From Spirochaetota bacterium (lineage in GTDB: Bacteria; Spirochaetota; Spirochaetia; Treponematales; Treponemataceae): 64,000 nucleotides of DNA. The stretch lies in the NCBI GenBank assembly GCA_023443865.1, contig JAEZST010000018.1:77214-141213 (forward strand), given 5' to 3'. Shown piece after piece: positions 12,325 to 18,417 of the stretch. The position numbers and the translations under genes are program-made. The notes under the pieces are model-generated. The model saw nothing but the letters and a program-made list of their open reading frames with translations, did no database searches and was not told where the DNA came from. The first letter of the stretch is position 1, and each line of letters begins with the position of its first letter.

Positions 12325-12415
12325 GGGTACATGATACCCGATAACGGGCGATTTTTACAGAACCCCTTGCCTAAAGCCCATCATGTTGGTATATTTAGCG
12401 AACGTTGCGATTGAA

Positions 12416-12516
12416 GCAAATTGCTTCGCGATTTTGGCGCCTGTCCTTGGAACCTGCGGTTCCGGCGGGCGGCGAGAGGAAGTGATTGTAACAAATTGCT
12501 TCGCGATTTTGGCGCC
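12416..12516 (+). repeat. Two copies of a 25-bp direct repeat (CAAATTGCTTCGCGATTTTGGCGCC) at 12417..12441 and 12492..12516. The second copy covers the 5' flank plus the first 6 nt of tRNA-Cys.
   Basis: Exact 25/25 match read directly from the sequence. Possibly a duplicated tRNA promoter/5' region. Confidence 0.6.
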
Positions 12517-12582
12517 GTACCCAAGCGGTAAGGGAGAGGTCTGCAAAACCTTTATGCATCAGTTCGATTCTGATCGGCGCCT
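12511..12582 (+). tRNA. tRNA-Cys (anticodon GCA).
   Basis: Manual fold of GGCGCCGTACCCAAGCGGTAAGGGAGAGGTCTGCAAAACCTTTATGCATCAGTTCGATTCTGATCGGCGCCT. Perfect 7-bp acceptor (GGCGCCG/CGGCGCC), U8-A9, D-loop AGCGGTA with GG. Anticodon stem GAGGT/ACCTT with loop CUGCAAA (U33, GCA, A37). 5-nt variable loop. T-arm ATCAG-TTCGATT-CTGAT. Discriminator U73, the tRNA-Cys identity base. CCA is not encoded. Confidence 0.75.
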
Positions 12583-12629
12583 CAAAAAGAAAAGCCCACC
12601 ATATGGTGGGCTTTTCTTTTTGAGGCGCC
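12576..12629. terminator. Perfect 54-bp palindrome, GGCGCCTCAAAAAGAAAAGCCCACCAT|ATGGTGGGCTTTTCTTTTTGAGGCGCC. The core GCCCACC-ATAT-GGTGGGC hairpin is flanked by an A-tract and a T-tract, so it is a bidirectional intrinsic terminator directly after tRNA-Cys. Its outer arm is the tRNA 3' acceptor strand.
   Basis: Inverted repeat read directly. The T-rich run TTTTCTTTTT follows the stem on the plus strand, and the complementary run follows it on the minus strand. Confidence 0.6.
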
Positions 12630-12823: not shown

Positions 12824-12852
12824 TTGCGGAAATGCAATTATGCGGTTATCAT
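12824..12852 (+). promoter_or_regulatory. Candidate sigma-70-like promoter for the EBP gene (TTGCGG-17nt-TATCAT). The predicted start site is within 1-2 nt of the ATG, so the mRNA may be leaderless. It overlaps the ATTGCGGAAATGC motif.
   Basis: Hexamers read directly: -35 at 12824..12829, -10 at 12847..12852, ATG at 12860. No RBS is possible in the interval. Confidence 0.3.
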
Positions 12853-12859
12853 TTTTAAA

Positions 12860-14206
12860 ATGAGCGACGACAGCCTTACCGCGAACATCCTCGAGAGCAT
12901 TTCGGACGGGGTATTCACGGTCGACGAAAACTGGAAGATTACCTCGTTTAACCGGGCCGCGGAACGGATTACCGGGGTGGGCCGGAAGCAGGCGATCGGT
13001 CAGAACTGCTTCGAGGTGTTCAAGTCGAATATGTGCGAGTCGTCGTGCCCCTTACGGCGAACGATGAAGACGGGAAAGCCGCTCGTCGACCGTTCGGGCT
13101 TTTGCGTGACGAAAAAGGGCAGTCGGATCCCGATCAGCGTATCGACCGCCTTGCTCGTTGACGCCCGGGGAAGGGTGCTCGGCGGCGCGGAGACGTTTCG
13201 CGATTTGACCGAACTCGAGGAACTGAAGAAGGAACTGGCCTCCCGCGGGCCAAACCCCGTTTTCCGGAGCAAAAGCCCTTCCATGGAGAAACTTCTCGCG
13301 ATGCTTCCCGCGGTTTCGGACTCTACGAGCTCTATCCTGATACGGGGCGAGACGGGCACGGGCAAGGAAGTGCTGGCCCGCGCCATCCATTCCCTGAGCC
13401 CCCGAAAGGACGGGCCGTTCGTCGCGGTAAACTGCGGCGCGATCCCCGAAAACCTCCTTGAATCGGAGCTCTTTGGCTATAAGAAGGGCGCCTTCACCGG
13501 CGCCGACCGCGACAAGCCGGGGCGCTTCGCGCTCGCCGAGGGCGGAACCCTTTTTCTCGACGAGATAGGCGATATTGCCCCTGCCTTGCAGGTAAAGCTT
13601 TTGCGCGTCCTTCAGGAACGGGAGTACGAGCCGCTCGGCGGCACGAAGCCGGTACGCGCCGACGTGCGGCTCGTCTCGGCGACGAACGCGGACCTTGCGG
13701 CCCTGATCGCCGAGGGAACGTTTCGGCGCGATCTTTTTTATCGCGTCAACGTCATCAATCTCGTACTGCCTCCATTAAAAGACCGGAAAGAAGACATACC
13801 CGATCTCGCCTCGGGCTTTCTCTCGTCGTTCGCCGTGAAAATGAACAGGAAAATCGACGGGATCGCGCCCGAGGTGTTCTCTCGTTTTTACGCGTATGAC
13901 TGGCCCGGCAATATCCGCGAGCTCGAAAACGTCGTAGAGCGCATGGTCGTGCTCGCGGACGCTCCCATTATCGGCCGGGACCTCTTGCCGAGCGAACTGC
14001 TGGCTCCCGGCGTTTCCCTAAAGGAAGCGCTAGCGGGAGCCGGCCCGGCGAAGGTCGCGCGCGTGCGCGACGAGGCCGAGCGGGAATGCATCGCCGCGGC
14101 CCTCGAGGCGCACGGATGGAGGCGCGCCGAGACGGCCGCCGCGCTCGGCATCGACAAGGCGACCCTGTGGCGGAAGGTGAAAAAGCTCGGCATTACCGAG
14201 CCGTAG
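12860..14206 (+). CDS. Sigma-54-dependent transcriptional activator (bacterial enhancer-binding protein). N-terminal PAS sensor, central AAA+ sigma-54 interaction domain, C-terminal Fis-type HTH. No receiver domain.
   Basis: PAS segment ([30 protein letters not shown]). Walker A GETGTGKE, the GAFTGA sigma-54 contact motif, ESELFGY, and a C-terminal HTH ([20 protein letters not shown]). The track ORF begins at 12761, but the start is placed at ATG 12860 ([12 protein letters not shown]). Confidence 0.85.
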
Positions 14207-14234: not shown

Positions 14235-14519
14235 TCACGTTTCCTTCGGCGCGGTCAGTTCGGCGAGCCGCCCGTTCGCTTTCTCGAGTTCGCGCGAGAG
14301 AATCGCGACGCGGTTCTCGAGGAAGGCCTTTTCTTCCCCGTCCATCGATTCGGTCGGTAGGGCCCCGCGCATGCGTCGCCGGCCTCCGAAGCGTCCGCCT
14401 CCGAAGCCCCGGCCTTCGCCGCTCGCGTATCCCGGAACGTCATATCCCGCGCAGAAACCCGCTCCGCGGCCGGTCATCGGACCGCATCCCCGCGGTCCCA
14501 TTCCATTTCCTCTAGGCAT
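14235..14519 (-). CDS. Small Gly/Arg-rich protein resembling the DUF5320 family. The N-terminus is MPRGNGMGPRGCGPMTGRGAGFCAGY and the C-terminus is a coiled-coil. This family is typically encoded next to NifX-like/Mrp clusters in anaerobes.
   Basis: 94-aa ORF with a strong RBS (AGGAGG 7 nt upstream of the ATG). The N-terminal MPRG(D/N)G(T/M)GP(M/R)G.GP.TGRGAG(Y/F)CAG pattern matches what I recall of DUF5320. It sits under its own sigma-54 promoter. Confidence 0.6.
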   Translation of the reverse strand: MPRGNGMGPRGCGPMTGRGAGFCAGYDVPGYASGEGRGFGGGRFGGRRRMRGALPTESMDGEEKAFLENRVAILSRELEKANGRLAELTAPKET

Positions 14520-14555
14520 AGTGTACCTCCTCTAGCTGAGAGTTTCCCATCGTGA

Positions 14556-14572
14556 TGCAAAAAGCGTGCCAA
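14556..14572 (-). promoter_or_regulatory. Sigma-54 (RpoN) promoter for the DUF5320-like gene. On the minus strand it reads TTGGCACGCTTTTTGCA, a perfect TGGCACG-N4-TTGC.
   Basis: The -24 GG and -12 GC elements have exact consensus spacing. The predicted start site is ~14545, giving a 26-nt leader with AGGAGG and the ATG at 14519. Confidence 0.7.
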
Positions 14573-14715
14573 GCGCCTTTTTATGCTCCCGACGGGAGAG
14601 CGAAGGCGAAAACGCGGCGCGAATGATTGCGGATATGCGCTATCCATTGCGTTCGCGTTGCGATTCCGCACTGTAATGCGGGGCCTGCCGCCCCCATTTT
14701 CGCGATTATTCGAGA

Positions 14716-14731
14716 TGGCACGGAAATTGCT
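14716..14731 (+). promoter_or_regulatory. Sigma-54 (RpoN) promoter for the NifX-like/MinD-Fer4/Mrp operon: TGGCACGGAAATTGCT, a perfect TGGCACG-N4-TTGC.
   Basis: Exact consensus read on the plus strand. The -12 GC is at 14729..14730, so the predicted start site at ~14741..14743 coincides with the first ATG (14743). The first gene would be translated from a leaderless or near-leaderless mRNA. Confidence 0.7.
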
Positions 14732-14742
14732 CAATAAAAACC

Positions 14743-15129
14743 ATGAAACTTGCCCTATCGGTCTGGAATGGCAGAATCGCTCCCGTCTTTGACGCATCGG
14801 AACGGTGCCTGATCGTCGACGCCGGTTCCTCCGGCTCGATCGGCGATCTTGTCGTTTTTTCGTGCCGGACCGCCGACGAAAAGGCCCGTTTTCTCGCTGA
14901 CAAGGGCGTGTCGACGGTCGTGTGCGGCGCGGTGTCCCATGAATACGAGGAAGCCTTCATTGCGCGCGGTATCGAGATTGTCTCGTTTATAGCCGGGCCG
15001 GTGGAGCGAGTAATCGAGGCCTGGAACGCCGGGACCCTGATAGGGGCACCGTTTTCCATGCCGGGATGCGGCTGTCCGCGCCGCCGCCGATGCAGGCGGA
15101 GAGGGCGCGGAGGATCGCTCAATCTATAG
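14743..15129 (+). CDS. NifX/NafY/NifB-C-terminal-like dinitrogenase FeMo-cofactor-family protein (MTH1175-like fold), copy 1. It has an odd Arg/Cys-rich C-terminal tail.
   Basis: 128 aa. The N-terminus MKLALSVWNGRIAPVFDASERCLIVD is the characteristic beginning of this family (MKIA.p...g.....FG.a..f.i.D). Confidence 0.75.
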   Translation: MKLALSVWNGRIAPVFDASERCLIVDAGSSGSIGDLVVFSCRTADEKARFLADKGVSTVVCGAVSHEYEEAFIARGIEIVSFIAGPVERVIEAWNAGTLIGAPFSMPGCGCPRRRRCRRRGRGGSLNL

Positions 15130-15148: not shown

Positions 15149-15511
15149 ATGAAAATCGCAATCAGTTCATCGGGACCGACGCTCGACGATCGGCTTGACC
15201 TTCGGTTCGGCCGCGCCGCCCTGTTTATCGTCTACGATCTTGACGGCGACGCGTTCGCCGTCGCTGACAATACGCAAAATCTCGAGGCCTCGCAGGGCGC
15301 GGGAATCCAGGCGGCGCAGCATGTCGTCAACGCGGGAGTCGGGGCGCTCGTAACCGGCCACACGGGGCCGAAAGCCTTCAAGGTACTCGAGGCCGCGAAG
15401 GTTCCCGTATTCCTGGCCGAGGGCGGGACCGTGCGGGAAGCGATCGCCGCCTTCCGCGCGGGCACCCTCGAGGCCATCGTTGCGGCCGACGTTGAGGGCC
15501 ATTGGGTATGA
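15149..15511 (+). CDS. NifX/NafY-like dinitrogenase FeMo-cofactor-family protein, copy 2.
   Basis: 120 aa. MKIAISSSGPTLDDRLDLRFGRAALFIVYDLDGDAF... with the conserved ...GVGALVTGHTGPKAF...VPVF segment. RBS AAGGGGAG upstream. The stop overlaps the next start (ATGA). Confidence 0.8.
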   Translation: MKIAISSSGPTLDDRLDLRFGRAALFIVYDLDGDAFAVADNTQNLEASQGAGIQAAQHVVNAGVGALVTGHTGPKAFKVLEAAKVPVFLAEGGTVREAIAAFRAGTLEAIVAADVEGHWV

Positions 15512-16404
15512 GGATAGCCGTCGCGTCCGGCAAGGGAGGAACGGGCAAAACGACCGTATCGGTTTCCCTCGCGCTCTCGTTTCCGGGGAAGGCGCAGCTT
15601 CTCGACTGCGACGTGGAAGAGCCGAACGCGGGGATCTTTCTCTCGCGGCGGGATATCCGCGAACGGGAGGTTACCGTCCCCGTTCCGGTCATAGACGAGG
15701 CGAAGTGTACCGCGTGCGGCGCTTGCGCGTCGTTTTGCGAGTTTAACGCGATCGCGCGCATCGGGGACACCGTCATGATATTCCCCGAACTGTGCCACTC
15801 CTGCGGCGGCTGCGCGCTCGTATGCCCGGTTGGCGCGATTCGGGAGGAACCGTCCGCGATCGGTACGTTAACGGAAAGCGAGATTCTTCGCGACGGCCTT
15901 TATCCCCTCGATTTTTTTCAGGGCCTGCTCTCGATCGGAAAGGCGATGTCACCGCCGCTGATCCGGGCGGTCAAGTCTCGCGCGGCAAGATCGGACCGGG
16001 GGGGCGAAGGGCGCGGAGACCCCGACGTACTGACGATCGTCGACTCTCCCCCGGGAACGTCATGCCCGATGGGCACGGCCGTCGCGGGCGCGGACTTCGT
16101 CGTTCTCGTGACCGAGCCCACGCCCTTCGGCCTCCATGACCTTGACCTCGCGGTGAAGACCGTCCGAACGAGGGGGATCCCCTTCGGCGTCGTCATAAAT
16201 CGGTGCGATTCGGGCGACGGCCGCGTGGAGGCGTACTGCGCAGGGGAGCGTATCCGGATTCTCATGCAAATACCGGAAGACCGCCGCGTCGCCGAGGGTT
16301 ACTCGGAGGGAAAACCGCTTATCGAGTCGGCTCCGGAATACCGGAAGAAGTTCGCCGTTTTGGCGGATGTCATAGCCGGCGAGATACGGGGAGGGGACCG
16401 ATGA
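15508..16404 (+). CDS. MinD/ParA/CooC-type P-loop ATPase with an inserted di-cluster 4Fe-4S ferredoxin domain.
   Basis: Deviant Walker A SGKGGTGKTT. Two CxxCxxCxxxCP motifs (CTACGACASFCE, CHSCGGCALVCP). The track start 15502 is a TTG, so ATG 15508 (MRIAVASGKGG) is preferred. Confidence 0.8.
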   Translation: MRIAVASGKGGTGKTTVSVSLALSFPGKAQLLDCDVEEPNAGIFLSRRDIREREVTVPVPVIDEAKCTACGACASFCEFNAIARIGDTVMIFPELCHSCGGCALVCPVGAIREEPSAIGTLTESEILRDGLYPLDFFQGLLSIGKAMSPPLIRAVKSRAARSDRGGEGRGDPDVLTIVDSPPGTSCPMGTAVAGADFVVLVTEPTPFGLHDLDLAVKTVRTRGIPFGVVINRCDSGDGRVEAYCAGERIRILMQIPEDRRVAEGYSEGKPLIESAPEYRKKFAVLADVIAGEIRGGDR

Positions 16405-17318
16405 AGGAAATCGCGATAATAAGCGGAAAGGGCGGCACGGGAAAGACCAGTCTCACGGCCGCCTTCGCGACGCTGGCGGCCCGGCGCGGAAACGCGGTCC
16501 TGGCCGACTGCGACGTGGACGCCGCGGACCTGCGCCTCGTTCTTTCGCCCGAGATTCTCGAACGCCGCGAGTTTGTTTCCGGACGCGTCGCCCGCGTGGA
16601 TCCCGAACGGTGTATATCCTCGGGAGAGGATTCAAGCTGCTCGAAGTGCGTGGAGCTCTGCCGGTTCGACGCGATACGGCGCTCCGGCGATTCGGGCATA
16701 GAGATCGACGGGGGCTCGTGCGAGGGCTGCGGCGTATGCGTTCGGTTTTGCCCCGCAAAGGCGATCGAGTTCGTACCCCGGCGATGCGGCGAATGGTACG
16801 TTTCCGAGACGCGGTTCGGCCCGCTCGCCCACGCGGCGCTCGACGCGCGCGCGGAGAACTCGGGCAAGCTCGTAACGGCCGTCCGCAAGGAAGCGAAACG
16901 GCTCGCGGGCGAAACGAAGGCCGACTGGATCATCGTGGACGGGTCTCCCGGCACTGGCTGCCCGGTCATCGCCTCGATCACCGGCGCCGACGAGGCGCTG
17001 ATCGTGACCGAGCCCACGATGTCCGGACACCATGACCTTGAGCGCGTCGCGGGCCTCGCGCGGCATTTCTCGATCCCGTTTTCGGTCGTCGTGAACAAGG
17101 CCGACATCAACCGGGCCATGGCAGACGAAACGGAGGCCTGGTGCGCGCGGAACGGGGTGCCGTTTCTCGGGAAGGTCCCGTACGACCGCGCCGTGACGAG
17201 GGCCCAGATCGAGGGAAAGAGCGTGATCGAGTATTGCGAAAGCGGCGGAAGCTGCGGGCAAAACATACCGTCGATAGTCGGCGGAATATGGGAGAAGATA
17301 TGTCAATCGAAACGGTAA
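16401..17318 (+). CDS. Second MinD/ParA-type P-loop ATPase with a 4Fe-4S ferredoxin insertion, paralogous to the previous gene.
   Basis: MKEIAIISGKGGTGKTS Walker A. Cys clusters CSKCVELC and CEGCGVCVRFCP. The start is the ATG at 16401 inside the track ORF 16203..17318, with ATGA overlap to the upstream stop. Confidence 0.8.
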   Translation: MKEIAIISGKGGTGKTSLTAAFATLAARRGNAVLADCDVDAADLRLVLSPEILERREFVSGRVARVDPERCISSGEDSSCSKCVELCRFDAIRRSGDSGIEIDGGSCEGCGVCVRFCPAKAIEFVPRRCGEWYVSETRFGPLAHAALDARAENSGKLVTAVRKEAKRLAGETKADWIIVDGSPGTGCPVIASITGADEALIVTEPTMSGHHDLERVAGLARHFSIPFSVVVNKADINRAMADETEAWCARNGVPFLGKVPYDRAVTRAQIEGKSVIEYCESGGSCGQNIPSIVGGIWEKICQSKR

Positions 17319-18079
17319 AGATGGACGGCGTGGCGAAGAAGTATATCGTCATGTCGGGAAAGGGCGGCGTCGGGAAAAGCACGGTCGCGGTGAACCTCGC
17401 CGCGAGTCTCGCCCTGCGGGGCAAGCGGGTCGGGCTCCTCGACGTGGACATTCACGGACCGAGCGTGCCGACCATGCTCGGGCTCGAGGGAAACCGGCTC
17501 GGTGCGATCGGCGGGAAGATGCTGCCCGTCGGGATCCCGGAACTCGGCAACTTGAAGGTGATGTCGATCGGCTTCATGCTCCAATCGCCCGACGCCCCGG
17601 TAATCTGGCGCGGCCCGATGAAGAACGGCGTGATCAAGCAATTCCTGGAAGATGTCGAATGGGGCGAGCTCGATTGCCTCGTCGTCGATTGCCCTCCCGG
17701 GACGGGAGACGAGCCGATGTCGGTCATTCAGCTCCTCGGTAACGCTGACGGGGCGATCGTCGTCACGACGCCTCAAAAAGTCGCGGCGATCGACGTGAGC
17801 AAGTCCGTCAATTTCTGCAAGCAGCTTGGCCTCCCGGTCGCCGGCGTCGTCGAGAACATGTCCGGCTTCGTGTGTCCCGAATGCGGGAAGATTACCTATG
17901 TCTTCAAGCGGGGGGGCGGCAGGCGGCTCGCTGAGGAATACGGCGTGCCGTTTCTCGGCTCCCTGCCGCTCGATCCCGCCATCGGGGAGGCCGGCGATTC
18001 CGGCGTTCCCTACGTTTTGAAGTTCAAGGAGTCGCCGGCGAGCGACGTATATAACGAGATTACAAGGAGCCTTTTATGA
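17300..18079 (+). CDS. Mrp/NBP35/ApbC-family Fe-S cluster carrier ATPase.
   Basis: VMSGKGGVGKSTVAVNLA Walker A, conserved CPECG motif, about 259 aa. The start is placed at ATG 17300 (MSIETVK) with the RBS GGGAGAAG. The upstream part of the track ORF is an Arg-rich artefact. The stop overlaps the next gene. Confidence 0.85.
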   Translation: MSIETVKMDGVAKKYIVMSGKGGVGKSTVAVNLAASLALRGKRVGLLDVDIHGPSVPTMLGLEGNRLGAIGGKMLPVGIPELGNLKVMSIGFMLQSPDAPVIWRGPMKNGVIKQFLEDVEWGELDCLVVDCPPGTGDEPMSVIQLLGNADGAIVVTTPQKVAAIDVSKSVNFCKQLGLPVAGVVENMSGFVCPECGKITYVFKRGGGRRLAEEYGVPFLGSLPLDPAIGEAGDSGVPYVLKFKESPASDVYNEITRSLL

Positions 18080-18417
18080 TGAAGATCGCGGTACCCGTAG
18101 CGGAAGGGCGGCTGACCCAGCATTTCGGCCATTGCGCGGGGTTCGATTCCTTCGACGTCGCCGAGGACGGAAAGACCGTCGTCAATAAGGATTACATCGC
18201 CGCCCCGCCCCACGAGCCGGGCCTCTTGCCGAAATTCCTCGGCGAAAAGGGCGTGACCCATATCGTCGCGGGGGGAATGGGGAGCCGGGCGCGCGACCTC
18301 TTTACCGAGCGGGGAATCGCCGTGTGCGTCGGCGCGCCCGCAGAGAAAACCGAGAAAATCGTCGCGGACTTTCTCGCCGGGACCTTGATTACCGGCGTTA
18401 ACGGATGCGACCATTGA
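18076..18417 (+). CDS. NifX/NafY-like dinitrogenase FeMo-cofactor-family protein, copy 3.
   Basis: 113 aa. MMKIAVPVAEGRLTQHFGHCAGFDSFDV... with ...THIVAGGMGSRA..., typical of the family. Confidence 0.8.
   Translation: MMKIAVPVAEGRLTQHFGHCAGFDSFDVAEDGKTVVNKDYIAAPPHEPGLLPKFLGEKGVTHIVAGGMGSRARDLFTERGIAVCVGAPAEKTEKIVADFLAGTLITGVNGCDH

What the first reader, a model, noticed from the sequence alone, without database searches (positions are those of the whole stretch)
14520..14742. Two divergent perfect-consensus sigma-54 promoters in one 220-bp intergenic region, one giving a leaderless first gene
Minus strand at 14556..14572: TTGGCACGCTTTTTGCA (TGGCACG-N4-TTGC). Its predicted start site gives a 26-nt leader containing AGGAGG before the DUF5320-like gene. 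Plus strand at 14716..14731: TGGCACGGAAATTGCT (TGGCACG-N4-TTGC). The -12 GC lies 13 nt before the ATG of the first NifX-like gene, so that mRNA would start at or within 1-2 nt of the AUG. Leaderless sigma-54 transcripts are unusual. The 140 bp between the promoters contain a 13-bp palindrome CTCCCGACGGGAG (~14590..14604) and several TTGCG(G) repeats that could be activator-binding sites (UAS) shared by both promoters.
Basis: seen in the sequence. Interest (0 to 1): 0.6.

Follow-up and report, generated by a model that had tools for sequence, protein, structure and literature searches.

The report
Divergent sigma-54 promoters, one leaderless
This short gap between genes is the control region of an "orp" iron-sulfur/orange-protein gene cluster in a probable spirochaete: one shared activator-binding site drives two back-to-back sigma-54 promoters, and one promoter sits so close to its gene that the mRNA should begin at the AUG itself, a layout kept in about 29 related loci and not found described in the papers searched.

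Summary
The exact motif TGGCACG-N4-TTGC occurs only twice in 64 kb (0 expected), back to back at 14557-14571 (-) and 14716-14730 (+).

The locus is an orp cluster of the kind studied in Desulfovibrio vulgaris. It has an OrpR-type sigma-54 activator whose PAS domain carries the C-x-E-x6-C-x3-C iron-sulfur signature. It also has a DUF5320 gene, three NifX-like genes, two MinD/ferredoxin ATPases and a split MrpORP.

The minus promoter gives a leader of about 26 nt with AGGAGG. On the plus strand the -12 C lies 13 nt before the ATG of the first NifX-like gene. That abutment (12-16 nt, mode 13) recurs in 29 distinct related loci. In all 29 the start codon is ATG and position -1 is a pyrimidine. In the 27 abutting loci that entered the formal comparison, only 1 has a Shine-Dalgarno-like tetramer. 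The spacer sequence is not conserved. Loci with 28-76-nt leaders mostly do carry Shine-Dalgarno motifs (Fisher p = 2e-8).

The conserved enhancer is two dyads, TTGCR-N4-YGCRM, 31 bp apart (14627-14640 and 14658-14671). The 13-bp palindrome is not conserved and not significant.

Divergent sigma-54/OrpR control is already known. The conserved leaderless sigma-54 design looks undescribed. No transcription start site has been mapped.

The parts
12824..12837 (.). OrpR-type dyad TTGCGGAAATGCAA, 36 nt before the likely orpR start codon; probable autoregulatory operator
   Evidence: Pattern search. The same dyad lies at the same offset in L081 (2183, ATG at 2219) and L088 (1044, ATG at 1079). In D. 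vulgaris the OrpR site overlaps the regulator's own sigma-70 promoter (PMC3897727).
12847..12852 (+). -10-like hexamer TATCAT ending 7 nt before ATG 12860; orpR has no Shine-Dalgarno motif and is probably also leaderless
   Evidence: L081 has TATTAT and L088 has TATCTT at equivalent positions. This is inference only.
12860..14206 (+). orpR-like sigma-54 enhancer-binding protein (PAS, AAA+ with GAFTGA, HTH_8); the open reading frame extends upstream to 12761
   Evidence: Pfam. Close homologues are 448-450 aa. The signature C-x-[ED]-x6-C-x3-C is present in 117 of 120 homologues and here ([15 protein letters not shown]). It has the same spacing as D. vulgaris OrpR C52/E54/C61/C65 (PMC8359166).
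14235..14519 (-). DUF5320 gene (Orp5-like), monocistronic, convergent with orpR
   Evidence: Pfam PF17253, E = 1.5e-21. The first gene of D. vulgaris orp2 starts ATGCCATACGGAGATG, i.e. MPYGD.
14526..14531 (-). Shine-Dalgarno motif AGGAGG, 7 nt before the DUF5320 ATG
   Evidence: Sequence.
14556..14572 (-). Sigma-54 promoter TTGGCACGCTTTTTGCA (GG at 14570/14569, GC at 14558/14557); predicted start about 14544-14546, leader about 26 nt
   Evidence: Conserved in L081, and as TTGGCATGTTTCCTGCA in L088. Every close relative has a perfect sigma-54 site plus a leader with AAGGAGG before DUF5320.
14586..14598 (.). 13-bp palindrome CTCCCGACGGGAG; probably not functional
   Evidence: 14% of shuffles give such a palindrome. 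It has one arm mismatch in L081 and is absent from L085-L088.
14627..14640 (.). Activator-site dyad 1, TTGCGGATATGCGC; its centre is about 109 bp upstream of A14743 and about 89 bp upstream of the minus start
   Evidence: Invariant TTGC and TGC columns in alignment A1. Pattern hits. The family-wide TGC-N5-TGC spacing of 8 occurs 48 times upstream against 0 in control DNA.
14647..14651 (.). Middle conserved TTGCG unit between the dyads
   Evidence: Invariant TGC columns.
14658..14671 (.). Activator-site dyad 2, TTGCGATTCCGCAC, 31 bp (about 3 helical turns) from dyad 1; its centre is about 79 bp upstream of A14743 and about 120 bp upstream of the minus start
   Evidence: The two-dyad spacing of 30-31 bp and the offset from the ATG are the same in L085, L087 and L088.
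14716..14731 (+). Sigma-54 promoter TGGCACGGAAATTGCT (GG at 14717/14718, GC at 14729/14730)
   Evidence: The -24 and -12 columns are invariant in A1.
14731..14742 (+). 12-nt spacer (TCAATAAAAACC) between the -12 C and the ATG; no Shine-Dalgarno motif; length conserved, sequence not; position -1 is a pyrimidine
14743..15129 (+). First NifX-like gene (subfamily with MKxAxSVWNGRIAPVFD at the N-terminus and MPGCGC plus an Arg-rich tail at the C-terminus); predicted leaderless, with A14743 at or 1-2 nt after the start site
   Evidence: Pfam PF02579. N-terminus conserved. No alternative start codon.
15149..15511 (+). Second NifX-like gene (ORP/Orp8-like fold), with Shine-Dalgarno motif GGGGAG
15508..16404 (+). 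MinD/ParA-type ATPase with 2x[4Fe-4S] ferredoxin motifs (Orp3/Orp4-like)
   Evidence: gene calls in the identical contig L082.
16401..17318 (+). Second MinD/ParA-type ATPase with ferredoxin motifs (Orp3/Orp4-like)
17300..18079 (+). Mrp/NBP35 domain of MrpORP (Orp9), encoded here as a separate gene
   Evidence: NCBIfam NF041136, 369 bits, model positions 2-247 of 365.
18076..18417 (+). Third NifX-like gene, equivalent to the C-terminal domain of MrpORP
   Evidence: NF041136, 119.5 bits, model positions 264-365.

Best explanation
The region 14520-14742 is the shared control region of an orp gene cluster. The orp system (orange protein / Fe-S cluster carrier) is known from Desulfovibrio vulgaris.

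The activator is the OrpR-type protein encoded just upstream. It is a PAS-AAA+-HTH enhancer-binding protein carrying the Cys signature of a redox-sensing [4Fe-4S] PAS domain. It most likely binds two dyads, TTGCR-N4-YGCRM, that are 31 bp apart (14627-14640 and 14658-14671). From this single enhancer, by DNA looping, it would activate sigma-54 RNA polymerase held at two divergent -24/-12 promoters, each about 80-120 bp away.

The minus promoter makes a DUF5320 mRNA with a leader of about 26 nt and a strong Shine-Dalgarno motif. The plus promoter makes a six-gene operon: NifX-like, NifX-like, two MinD/ferredoxin ATPases, Mrp, NifX-like. Its transcript starts at, or 1-2 nt before, the A of the first AUG. 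The first cistron would therefore be translated as a leaderless mRNA, while the downstream cistrons use their own Shine-Dalgarno motifs. A third copy of the dyad overlaps the regulator's own promoter, which implies autorepression.

Shown here: the sequence elements, their rarity, and their conservation in position and spacing. Also shown: the Shine-Dalgarno, ATG and -1 pyrimidine correlations, and the protein family assignments. Inferred: the start sites, dependence on sigma-54 and OrpR in this organism, redox sensing, and leaderless translation.
For: Rarity: there are two exact sigma-54 cores in 64 kb against 0 expected.

Gene content: Pfam and NCBIfam assign the full orp gene set. The activator has GAFTGA and the OrpR Cys signature (PMC8359166). 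Sigma-54 plus OrpR control of divergent orp operons is experimentally established in D. vulgaris (PMC3897727, PMC8359166).

Footprint: in the alignment of six loci, the only invariant blocks between the genes are five TGC cores, the -24 element, the -12 element and the ATG. Dyads occur only at the NifX1 enhancer and before orpR, at fixed offsets, in the window, L081 and L088. L085-L087 show only the NifX1-enhancer dyads, because orpR is not within those loci. Family-wide, TGCR-N4-YGCR occurs 0.94 times per locus upstream against 0.02 in control DNA.

Leaderless reading: the distance from the -12 C to the start codon is bimodal among the 53 of 58 distinct upstream sequences that have a sigma-54-like site. 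It is 12-15 nt in 27 (21 at exactly 13; 0.1 expected by chance) and 28-76 nt in 26. A Shine-Dalgarno-like tetramer is present in 1 of the 27 abutting loci against 20 of the 26 leadered loci (Fisher p = 2e-8). With no filter on the protein signature, 29 distinct abutting loci are found (12-16 nt). All 29 start with ATG and have a pyrimidine at -1. The spacer is only 33% identical between pairs, and the proteins fall to 24% identity. No alternative start codon exists. All other genes of the cluster have Shine-Dalgarno motifs. Among 130 distinct sigma-54-like sites in all loci held, 28 abut a long ORF and 26 of those are this gene family.
Against: No start site, sigma-54 dependence or OrpR binding has been measured for this organism, and rpoN is not in the window.

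By the usual numbering, with the C at -12, the start site would be the C at 14742. That gives a 1-nt leader rather than a true 5' AUG.

The loci compared are related by descent, so the counts overstate independence.

The dyad differs from the D. vulgaris OrpR site GGGCGYRTTTTGCGCCC, so binding by this OrpR is inferred from position only. The degenerate dyad pattern is not rare across the window (5 found, 4 expected); only its clustering is informative.

In L085-L087 the DUF5320 sigma-54 promoter has no dyad within 200 bp, so how it is activated there is unexplained.

The predicted weak 5' structure of the mRNA is not significant (z = 1.46).
Confidence: 0.8

Rival explanations
1. The plus-strand sigma-54 promoter works, but the operon mRNA that is actually translated comes from another promoter further upstream. 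The NifX-like gene would then be translated from a leadered mRNA without a Shine-Dalgarno motif, and the abutting -24/-12 element would add regulation or act as a roadblock.
For: Initiation without a Shine-Dalgarno motif exists in many bacteria (own knowledge). A weak sigma-70-like match overlaps the region, but on the opposite strand. No start site has been mapped.
Against: No plus-strand sigma-70-like promoter was found between 14520 and 14742. The only conserved blocks upstream are the dyads and the -24/-12 elements. This rival does not explain three things: the fixed 12-nt spacing, ATG in all 29 abutting loci with a pyrimidine at -1 in all 29, and Shine-Dalgarno motifs appearing exactly where the promoter is further away.
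Confidence: 0.08
2. The real start codon of the first NifX-like gene is elsewhere, either upstream, so that the 'promoter' is coding sequence (the WH..C extensions), or downstream, so that a normal leader exists.
For: Gene callers extended the ORF upstream in 11 of 60 homologues; seven of these (P0002, P0022, P0027, P0036, P0038, P0041, P0046) read ...WHxxCxxxx before the Met.
Against: In the window an in-frame stop lies 22 codons upstream, with no start codon in between. 49 of 60 homologues start at this Met, M1 is invariant and K2 nearly so, and conservation starts at residue 1. The extensions are unrelated in sequence apart from the residues forced by TGGCAC...TTGC. No in-frame ATG, GTG or TTG follows in the conserved N-terminal strand.
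Confidence: 0.03
3. Each promoter has its own activator site, or the 13-bp palindrome and the A-tract inverted repeat (GCGAAAACG / CATTTTCGC, which resemble the D. vulgaris motif) are the true OrpR sites rather than the TTGCR dyads.
For: The inverted repeat 14606-14617 / 14692-14703 resembles the core YRTTTT(R)CGCC of the D. vulgaris site. The palindrome lies about 47 bp upstream of the minus start.
Against: Both A-tract arms are lost in the closest relative L081, which is 89% identical in NifX1 and 93% in OrpR. The dyad block 14620-14673 is nearly identical there and conserved in all others. The palindrome is not significant. The dyad also recurs before orpR.
Confidence: 0.07
4. The two sites are chance matches with no promoter function.
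For: None beyond the absence of experimental data.
Against: 0 exact matches are expected and 2 are observed, adjacent and divergent, next to a sigma-54 activator gene. Both are conserved across relatives.
Confidence: 0.01

Closest known systems
Desulfovibrio vulgaris Hildenborough orp operons and OrpR (DVU2103-DVU2109). Sources: Fievet et al. 2011 J Bacteriol, cited but not held; PMC3897727; PMC8359166; PMC6345978.
   Same: The gene set matches: DUF5320/Orp5-like, two ferredoxin-type MinD ATPases, an ORP-fold protein and MrpORP. There are two divergent sigma-54 promoters. The cognate PAS-AAA+-HTH activator has the same Cys/Glu signature. Activator sites lie 80-130 bp upstream. An activator site overlaps the regulator's own promoter. 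The DUF5320 unit has a leader of about 26-30 nt with a Shine-Dalgarno motif.
   Different: In D. vulgaris orpR lies between the operons, so each promoter has its own OrpR site. Here orpR lies outside and a single enhancer serves both promoters. The D. vulgaris site is GGGCGYRTTTTGCGCCC; here it is TTGCR-N4-YGCRM. Both D. vulgaris operons have leaders of about 30 nt with Shine-Dalgarno motifs (Fig. S1); here the six-gene operon is predicted to be leaderless. Gene order differs: one gene against six, compared with three against three. MrpORP is split into two genes. IHF sites are not evident.
E. coli zraP / zraSR, and NtrC at glnAp2 (from my own knowledge, not checked here)
   Same: zraP and zraSR are divergent sigma-54 promoters served by activator sites in one intergenic region. 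At glnAp2 the two strong NtrC dimer sites lie about three helical turns apart, around -110 and -140, like the two dyads here.
   Different: The activator families and signals differ. Both E. coli systems give leadered mRNAs.
Leaderless mRNAs made from sigma-70-type promoters whose -10 element lies next to the ORF (Deinococcus-Thermus, PMC12340547; Leptospira, PMC5243855; S. meliloti, PMC3616915)
   Same: The start site coincides with the A of an obligatory AUG, there is no Shine-Dalgarno motif, and the promoter element sits at a fixed distance from the start codon.
   Different: Those promoters are -10/-35 type and need no activator. Here the promoter is a -24/-12 enhancer-dependent one. None of the papers retrieved by searching leaderless with sigma54 or RpoN links the two in its title or abstract, and the four opened do not connect them.

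Membership tests
orp gene cluster / OrpR regulon | Cognate sigma-54 enhancer-binding protein with an N-terminal PAS domain carrying the three conserved Cys plus an acidic residue (D. vulgaris C52, D/E54, C61, C65), an AAA+ domain with the GAFTGA-type loop, and a C-terminal HTH | tested here: met
   Pfam finds PAS, Sigma54_activat and HTH_8. GAFTGA is present. [15 protein letters not shown] gives C-x-E-x6-C-x3-C, which is also found in 117 of 120 homologues. The spacing is as reported in PMC8359166. The D. vulgaris protein sequence itself was not available for a direct alignment.
orp gene cluster / OrpR regulon | Gene complement: two MinD-like ATPases with 2x[4Fe-4S] motifs (Orp3/4), an ORP-fold protein (Orp8), two-domain MrpORP (Orp9), and Orp5 | tested here: met
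   MrpORP model NF041136 matches as two adjacent genes (369 + 119.5 bits against a cut-off of 450 for the fused protein). The equation DUF5320 = Orp5 rests on the orp2 first-gene start MPYGD in Fig. S1.
orp gene cluster / OrpR regulon | -24/-12 promoters in front of both transcription units | tested here: met
orp gene cluster / OrpR regulon | OrpR-binding palindrome GGGCGYRTTTTGCGCCC upstream of each operon | tested here: not met
   No such site is present. The partly similar A-tract repeats at 14606-14617 and 14692-14703 are not conserved in L081. A different conserved dyad, TTGCR-N4-YGCRM, takes its place.
orp gene cluster / OrpR regulon | IHF site between the activator site and the promoter | tested here: inconclusive
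   No good WATCAR-N4-TTR match was seen by eye in 14573-14626 or 14672-14715. The length of this segment is conserved, but its sequence is not.
orp gene cluster / OrpR regulon | Activator site overlapping the regulator's own sigma-70 promoter (negative autoregulation) | tested here: met
   In sequence only: the dyad at 12824-12837 lies 36 nt before the orpR ATG, at the same offset in L081 and L088.
orp gene cluster / OrpR regulon | Redox control through a [4Fe-4S] cluster in the PAS domain; expression only under reducing conditions | not testable with these tools
   Needs biochemistry or physiology.
sigma-54-dependent promoter | GG and GC dinucleotides exactly 10 bp apart within YTGGCACGrNNNTTGCW | tested here: met
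   Both sites match all 11 core bases.
sigma-54-dependent promoter | Activator gene and upstream activator sites about 80-150 bp from the start site | tested here: met
   The dyad centres lie 79-120 bp from the predicted starts.
sigma-54-dependent promoter | rpoN present in the genome; transcription lost without it | not testable with these tools
   No RpoN box is encoded in the window. The source genome was not in genome contigs (best match 59% identity).
leaderless mRNA | Transcription start at, or within 5 nt of, the start codon | not testable with these tools
   Predicted from promoter geometry only: the -12 C lies 13 nt before the A, conserved.
leaderless mRNA | AUG start codon and no Shine-Dalgarno motif | tested here: met
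   All 29 abutting loci start with ATG. Among the 27 abutting loci in the formal comparison, 1 has a Shine-Dalgarno-like tetramer, against 20 of 26 leadered relatives, 4 of which use GTG.
leaderless mRNA | Unstructured 5' end | tested here: inconclusive
   In the minimum-energy fold the first 7 nt are unpaired and the fold is weaker than in shuffles, but z is only +1.46.

The most novel reading that the evidence does not exclude
A widespread subclade of orp clusters (Spirochaetota-, Desulfobacterota- and Myxococcota-labelled genomes plus many metagenome contigs) has fixed its enhancer-dependent sigma-54 promoter exactly 12 nt from the AUG. The operon would then be transcribed as a true leaderless mRNA. 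This would be the first conserved class of sigma-54 / enhancer-binding-protein-dependent leaderless transcripts. It would tie a redox-sensing Fe-S activator directly to Shine-Dalgarno-independent initiation on 70S ribosomes. It would also explain systematic upstream mis-extension of these genes in databases.
Probability: 0.6. Interest if true: 0.6.

Novelty: new variant of a known kind. Interest (0 to 1): 0.5.

Why it matters
Sigma-54 promoters are the bacterial model for enhancer-dependent transcription, and they are normally followed by ordinary leaders. Leaderless mRNAs have been studied almost only with sigma-70-type promoters, and they are most abundant in phyla that lack sigma-54 (own knowledge).

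A conserved sigma-54 promoter that abuts an AUG would show that the two mechanisms are compatible and can be selected together. It would also give a natural reporter in which every transcript depends on an activator and every translation event of the first cistron is independent of a Shine-Dalgarno motif.

There are three practical results. The orp/OrpR redox regulon is extended to spirochaete-like genomes. A new OrpR-family operator (TTGCR-N4-YGCRM) is defined. A recurrent annotation error is flagged: N-terminal 'WHxxC' extensions that are really translated promoters. Most of the architecture (divergent sigma-54 promoters under OrpR) is already known, so the advance is incremental rather than conceptual.

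Tried and rejected
1. D. vulgaris-type OrpR motif. The A-tract inverted repeat 14606-14617 / 14692-14703 looked similar to it, but both arms are lost in L081, so I rejected it as the main activator site.

2. The 13-bp palindrome. It is not significant and not conserved.

3. IHF sites. No convincing consensus match was seen by eye; left open.

4. A sigma-70 promoter for the operon. None was found on the plus strand. The only hit in the gap is a weak minus-strand match overlapping the sigma-54 site, and the scan as a whole was not above chance.

5. Structured RNA elements. Rfam at E <= 0.1 over 11.5-19 kb gave only tRNA-Cys plus noise hits.

6. The source genome. It is not in genome contigs (best OrpR match 59%). 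Cluster look-ups gave no names. The taxon is inferred only from a 78%-identical homologue labelled Treponemataceae.

7. The 2011 J Bacteriol paper with the D. vulgaris start-site mapping is not held. I used Fig. S1 of PMC3897727 instead.

8. Dyads near the distant DUF5320 promoters of L085-L087. None were found.

9. Prior reports of leaderless sigma-54 transcripts. Two full-text searches found no paper linking them in title or abstract, and the four papers opened do not connect them. This is absence of evidence in a partial library, not proof that the design is new.
Full report
**Observation.**
On the minus strand, 14572..14556 reads TTGGCACGCTTTTTGCA. On the plus strand, 14716..14731 reads TGGCACGGAAATTGCT. 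The exact core TGGCACG-N4-TTGC occurs only at these two places in 64 kb, with 0.00 expected from shuffles. Allowing one mismatch adds nothing. The looser core with two mismatches is not enriched (32 found, 40 expected).

The geometry is as stated.
- Minus strand: the -12 C is at 14557 and the ATG at 14519, so the leader is about 26 nt. AGGAGG lies at 14531..14526.
- Plus strand: the -12 C is at 14730 and the A of the ATG at 14743, a distance of 13 nt.
- The palindrome CTCCCGACGGGAG is at 14586-14598, slightly off the stated coordinates.

**What the locus is.**
- Pfam and NCBIfam identify 12761/12860-14206 (+) as a sigma-54 enhancer-binding protein with PAS, AAA+ (GAFTGA) and HTH_8 domains.
- 14235-14519 (-) is a DUF5320 gene.
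- The plus-strand operon has six genes: NifX-like (14743-15129), NifX-like (15149-15511), two MinD/ParA ATPases with ferredoxin motifs (15508-16404 and 16401-17318), an Mrp/NBP35 protein (17300-18079) and a third NifX-like gene (18076-18417).
- The last two genes together match the NCBIfam equivalog MrpORP, as its N-terminal and C-terminal domains.

This is the gene set of the orp (orange protein) cluster of Desulfovibrio vulgaris Hildenborough. There, two divergent operons are transcribed from sigma-54 promoters under the activator OrpR (DVU2106) and IHF, and OrpR senses redox potential through a [4Fe-4S] cluster held by C52, C61 and C65 of its PAS domain (PMC3897727, PMC8359166, PMC6345978).

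The window's activator carries [15 protein letters not shown], that is C-x-E-x6-C-x3-C, the same spacing including the acidic residue. The signature is present in 117 of its 120 best homologues. Close homologues are 448-450 aa, so the true start is probably ATG 12860. The nearest named homologue (78% identity) is labelled Treponemataceae. The nearest genome hits are labelled Treponema or Sphaerochaetaceae. The source is therefore probably a spirochaete, but this is inferred.

**Conservation of the two promoters.**
I fetched close relatives with the look-up of encoding contigs (L081-L088).
- L081 and L088 have the same divergent pair as the window.
- In L085-L087 the divergent neighbour is a different gene (C_GCAxxG_C_C), and DUF5320 lies 1.5-2 kb away.
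- In L081 and L085-L087 there are exactly two perfect sigma-54 cores. One abuts the NifX-like ATG. The other precedes DUF5320, with a leader of about 27 nt; AAGGAGG directly before the ATG is visible in L081, L085 and L087.
- L088 has the same pair with weaker cores (TGGCAT... on both strands).

In the six-way alignment of the intergenic region, the only invariant blocks are five TGC cores, TGGCA.G, TTGC and ATG.

**The leaderless claim.**
In the window and in L081 and L085-L088, exactly 12 nt separate the -12 C from the ATG, yet the 12 nt differ freely: TCAATAAAAACC, TTACTAAAAACC, TTATATCTAATC, TTGGTTATAGAC, AATAATATTTTT and TTATTACTAGCC.

I widened the sample with a genome scan seeded on the activator and a metagenome scan seeded on an alignment of the NifX-like subfamily. 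This gave 58 distinct upstream sequences, 53 of which have a sigma-54-like site within 250 nt. The distance from the -12 C to the start codon is bimodal.
- In 27 it is 12-15 nt, with 21 at exactly 13. About 0.1 would be expected by chance.
- In 26 it is 28-76 nt.
- A Shine-Dalgarno-like tetramer is present in 1 of the 27 abutting cases and in 20 of the 26 leadered cases (Fisher p = 2e-8).
- All abutting genes start with ATG. Four leadered genes use GTG.

With no filter on the protein signature, there are 29 distinct abutting loci (12-16 nt). All 29 start with ATG and all 29 have a pyrimidine at -1. This fits the usual pyrimidine(-1)/purine(+1) preference at start sites (own knowledge) if the A of the ATG is +1. 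Spacers are 33% identical between pairs and the proteins fall to 24% identity.

The ATG is the real start. In the window an in-frame TAA lies 22 codons upstream with no start codon in between. 49 of 60 homologues begin at this Met, and conservation begins at residue 1. The few longer database entries are gene-caller artefacts whose extra residues read WHxxCxxxx, which is the promoter translated in frame.

Two further controls support the reading.
- Every other gene of the cluster has a Shine-Dalgarno motif.
- Among 130 distinct sigma-54-like sites in all DNA held, 28 abut a long ORF, and 26 of those belong to this gene family.

By contrast, both D. vulgaris orp operons have leaders of about 30 nt with Shine-Dalgarno motifs (Fig. 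S1 of PMC3897727).

The inference is that the operon mRNA starts at A14743, or at most 1-2 nt before it, which still counts as leaderless under the <=5-nt definition quoted in PMC12754779. This rests on promoter geometry and comparative signals. No start site has been measured.

**The enhancer.**
The conserved TGC cores form two dyads, TTGCGGATATGCGC (14627-14640) and TTGCGATTCCGCAC (14658-14671), 31 bp apart, with a TTGCG unit between them.
- Relatives have TTGCA-N4-TGCAA/C at the same offsets from the ATG and the same 30-31 bp separation.
- Across 53 loci, a TGC-to-TGC spacing of 8 occurs 48 times upstream and never in control coding DNA. TGCR-N4-YGCR occurs 0.94 times per locus upstream against 0.02 in control.
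- The dyad centres lie 79 and 109 bp from A14743, and 120 and 89 bp from the predicted minus start. One enhancer is therefore well placed for both promoters.
- The same dyad, TTGCGGAAATGCAA, lies 36 nt before the orpR ATG in the window, L081 and L088. This matches the D. vulgaris arrangement, in which the OrpR site overlaps the regulator's own sigma-70 promoter and causes negative feedback.
- The degenerate pattern alone is not rare in the window (5 found, 4 expected). Its clustering at these two regulatory spots is what carries weight.
- The motif differs from the D. vulgaris site GGGCGYRTTTTGCGCCC.

The window sequences that look a little like that D. vulgaris site (14606-14617 and 14692-14703) are not conserved even in L081. 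The 13-bp palindrome is not significant (14% of shuffles) and not conserved.

**Mechanism proposed.**
OrpR, presumably active when its Fe-S cluster is reduced, sits on the two dyads. By DNA looping it remodels sigma-54 holoenzyme at both promoters.
- The minus promoter yields a conventional DUF5320 mRNA.
- The plus promoter yields a six-gene mRNA whose first cistron is translated from a 5'-terminal AUG, while the later cistrons use their own Shine-Dalgarno motifs.
- OrpR also represses its own promoter.

The sequence elements and their conservation are shown here. Sigma-54 and OrpR dependence, redox sensing and leaderless translation are inferred from the D. vulgaris work and from geometry.

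**Comparison and novelty.**
Divergent sigma-54 promoters under OrpR are known, so the core of the finding is a new member of a known system in a different phylum.

The differences from D. vulgaris are:
- a single shared enhancer instead of one per operon;
- a different operator sequence;
- a one-against-six gene split;
- a split MrpORP;
- a conserved leaderless design of the main operon.

Two full-text searches combining leaderless with sigma54 or RpoN retrieved no paper that links the two in its title or abstract, and the four papers I opened treat them separately. The library is partial, so novelty is likely but not certain.

I rate this a new variant of a known kind, of moderate interest. 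It is a clean, testable and apparently selected case of activator-dependent leaderless transcription, but not a new principle.

**Limits.**
- The loci compared share ancestry, so counts are not independent events. The randomised spacers and low protein identity do show that the spacing has been kept over long divergence.
- rpoN is not in the window.
- The weak predicted 5' structure of the mRNA is not significant.
- How the distant DUF5320 promoters of L085-L087 are activated is unexplained.

Noticed in passing
window 12824-12862: orpR itself appears to be leaderless from a sigma-70-type promoter. A -10-like TATCAT (12847-12852) ends 7 nt before ATG 12860, and there is no Shine-Dalgarno motif. 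The layout is the same in L081 (TATTAT) and L088 (TATCTT). An OrpR-type dyad (12824-12837) overlaps the expected -35 region and spacer, which suggests autorepression as in D. vulgaris.
   Followed up: partly
window 17300-18417: MrpORP (Orp9) is a two-domain protein in Desulfovibrio. Here it is encoded as two genes overlapping by 4 nt: the Mrp/NBP35 domain and a NifX-like domain. Each matches its half of NCBIfam NF041136.
   Followed up: partly
proteins P0002, P0022, P0027, P0036, P0038, P0041, P0046 (homologues of window 14743-15129): Database entries for this gene family often carry false N-terminal extensions ending ...WHxxCxxxx before the Met. These are the sigma-54 promoter translated in frame, so this is a systematic annotation error caused by the missing Shine-Dalgarno motif.
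   Followed up: yes
window 15050-15129 (C-terminus of the first NifX-like protein): This NifX-like subfamily has an invariant MPGCGC motif followed by an Arg-rich tail (RRRRCRRRGRG). This may be a cluster-binding or nucleic-acid-binding tail, and the other two NifX-like genes of the operon lack it.
   Followed up: no
L085-L087 (about 850-1720 and 2369-2812): In these relatives the gene divergent from the NifX-like operon is C_GCAxxG_C_C followed by a Zip transporter. DUF5320 lies 1.5-2 kb away with its own perfect sigma-54 promoter, but no OrpR-type dyad within 200 bp. This implies long-range activation or some other means of activator delivery.
   Followed up: partly
window 12511-12583: A tRNA-Cys(GCA) gene lies just upstream of the orpR promoter region. 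The repeated peptide strings seen in overlapping ORFs around 12380-12560 were not examined further.
   Followed up: no
L057 4221 (+): This is one of only two sigma-54-like sites in the fetched loci outside the NifX-like family that also lie 13-17 nt before a long ATG ORF (CGGCACGAATCTTGCT, 13 nt, protein starting MVNGGEAPMELARAQ). It could be chance or a second leaderless sigma-54 case.
   Followed up: no
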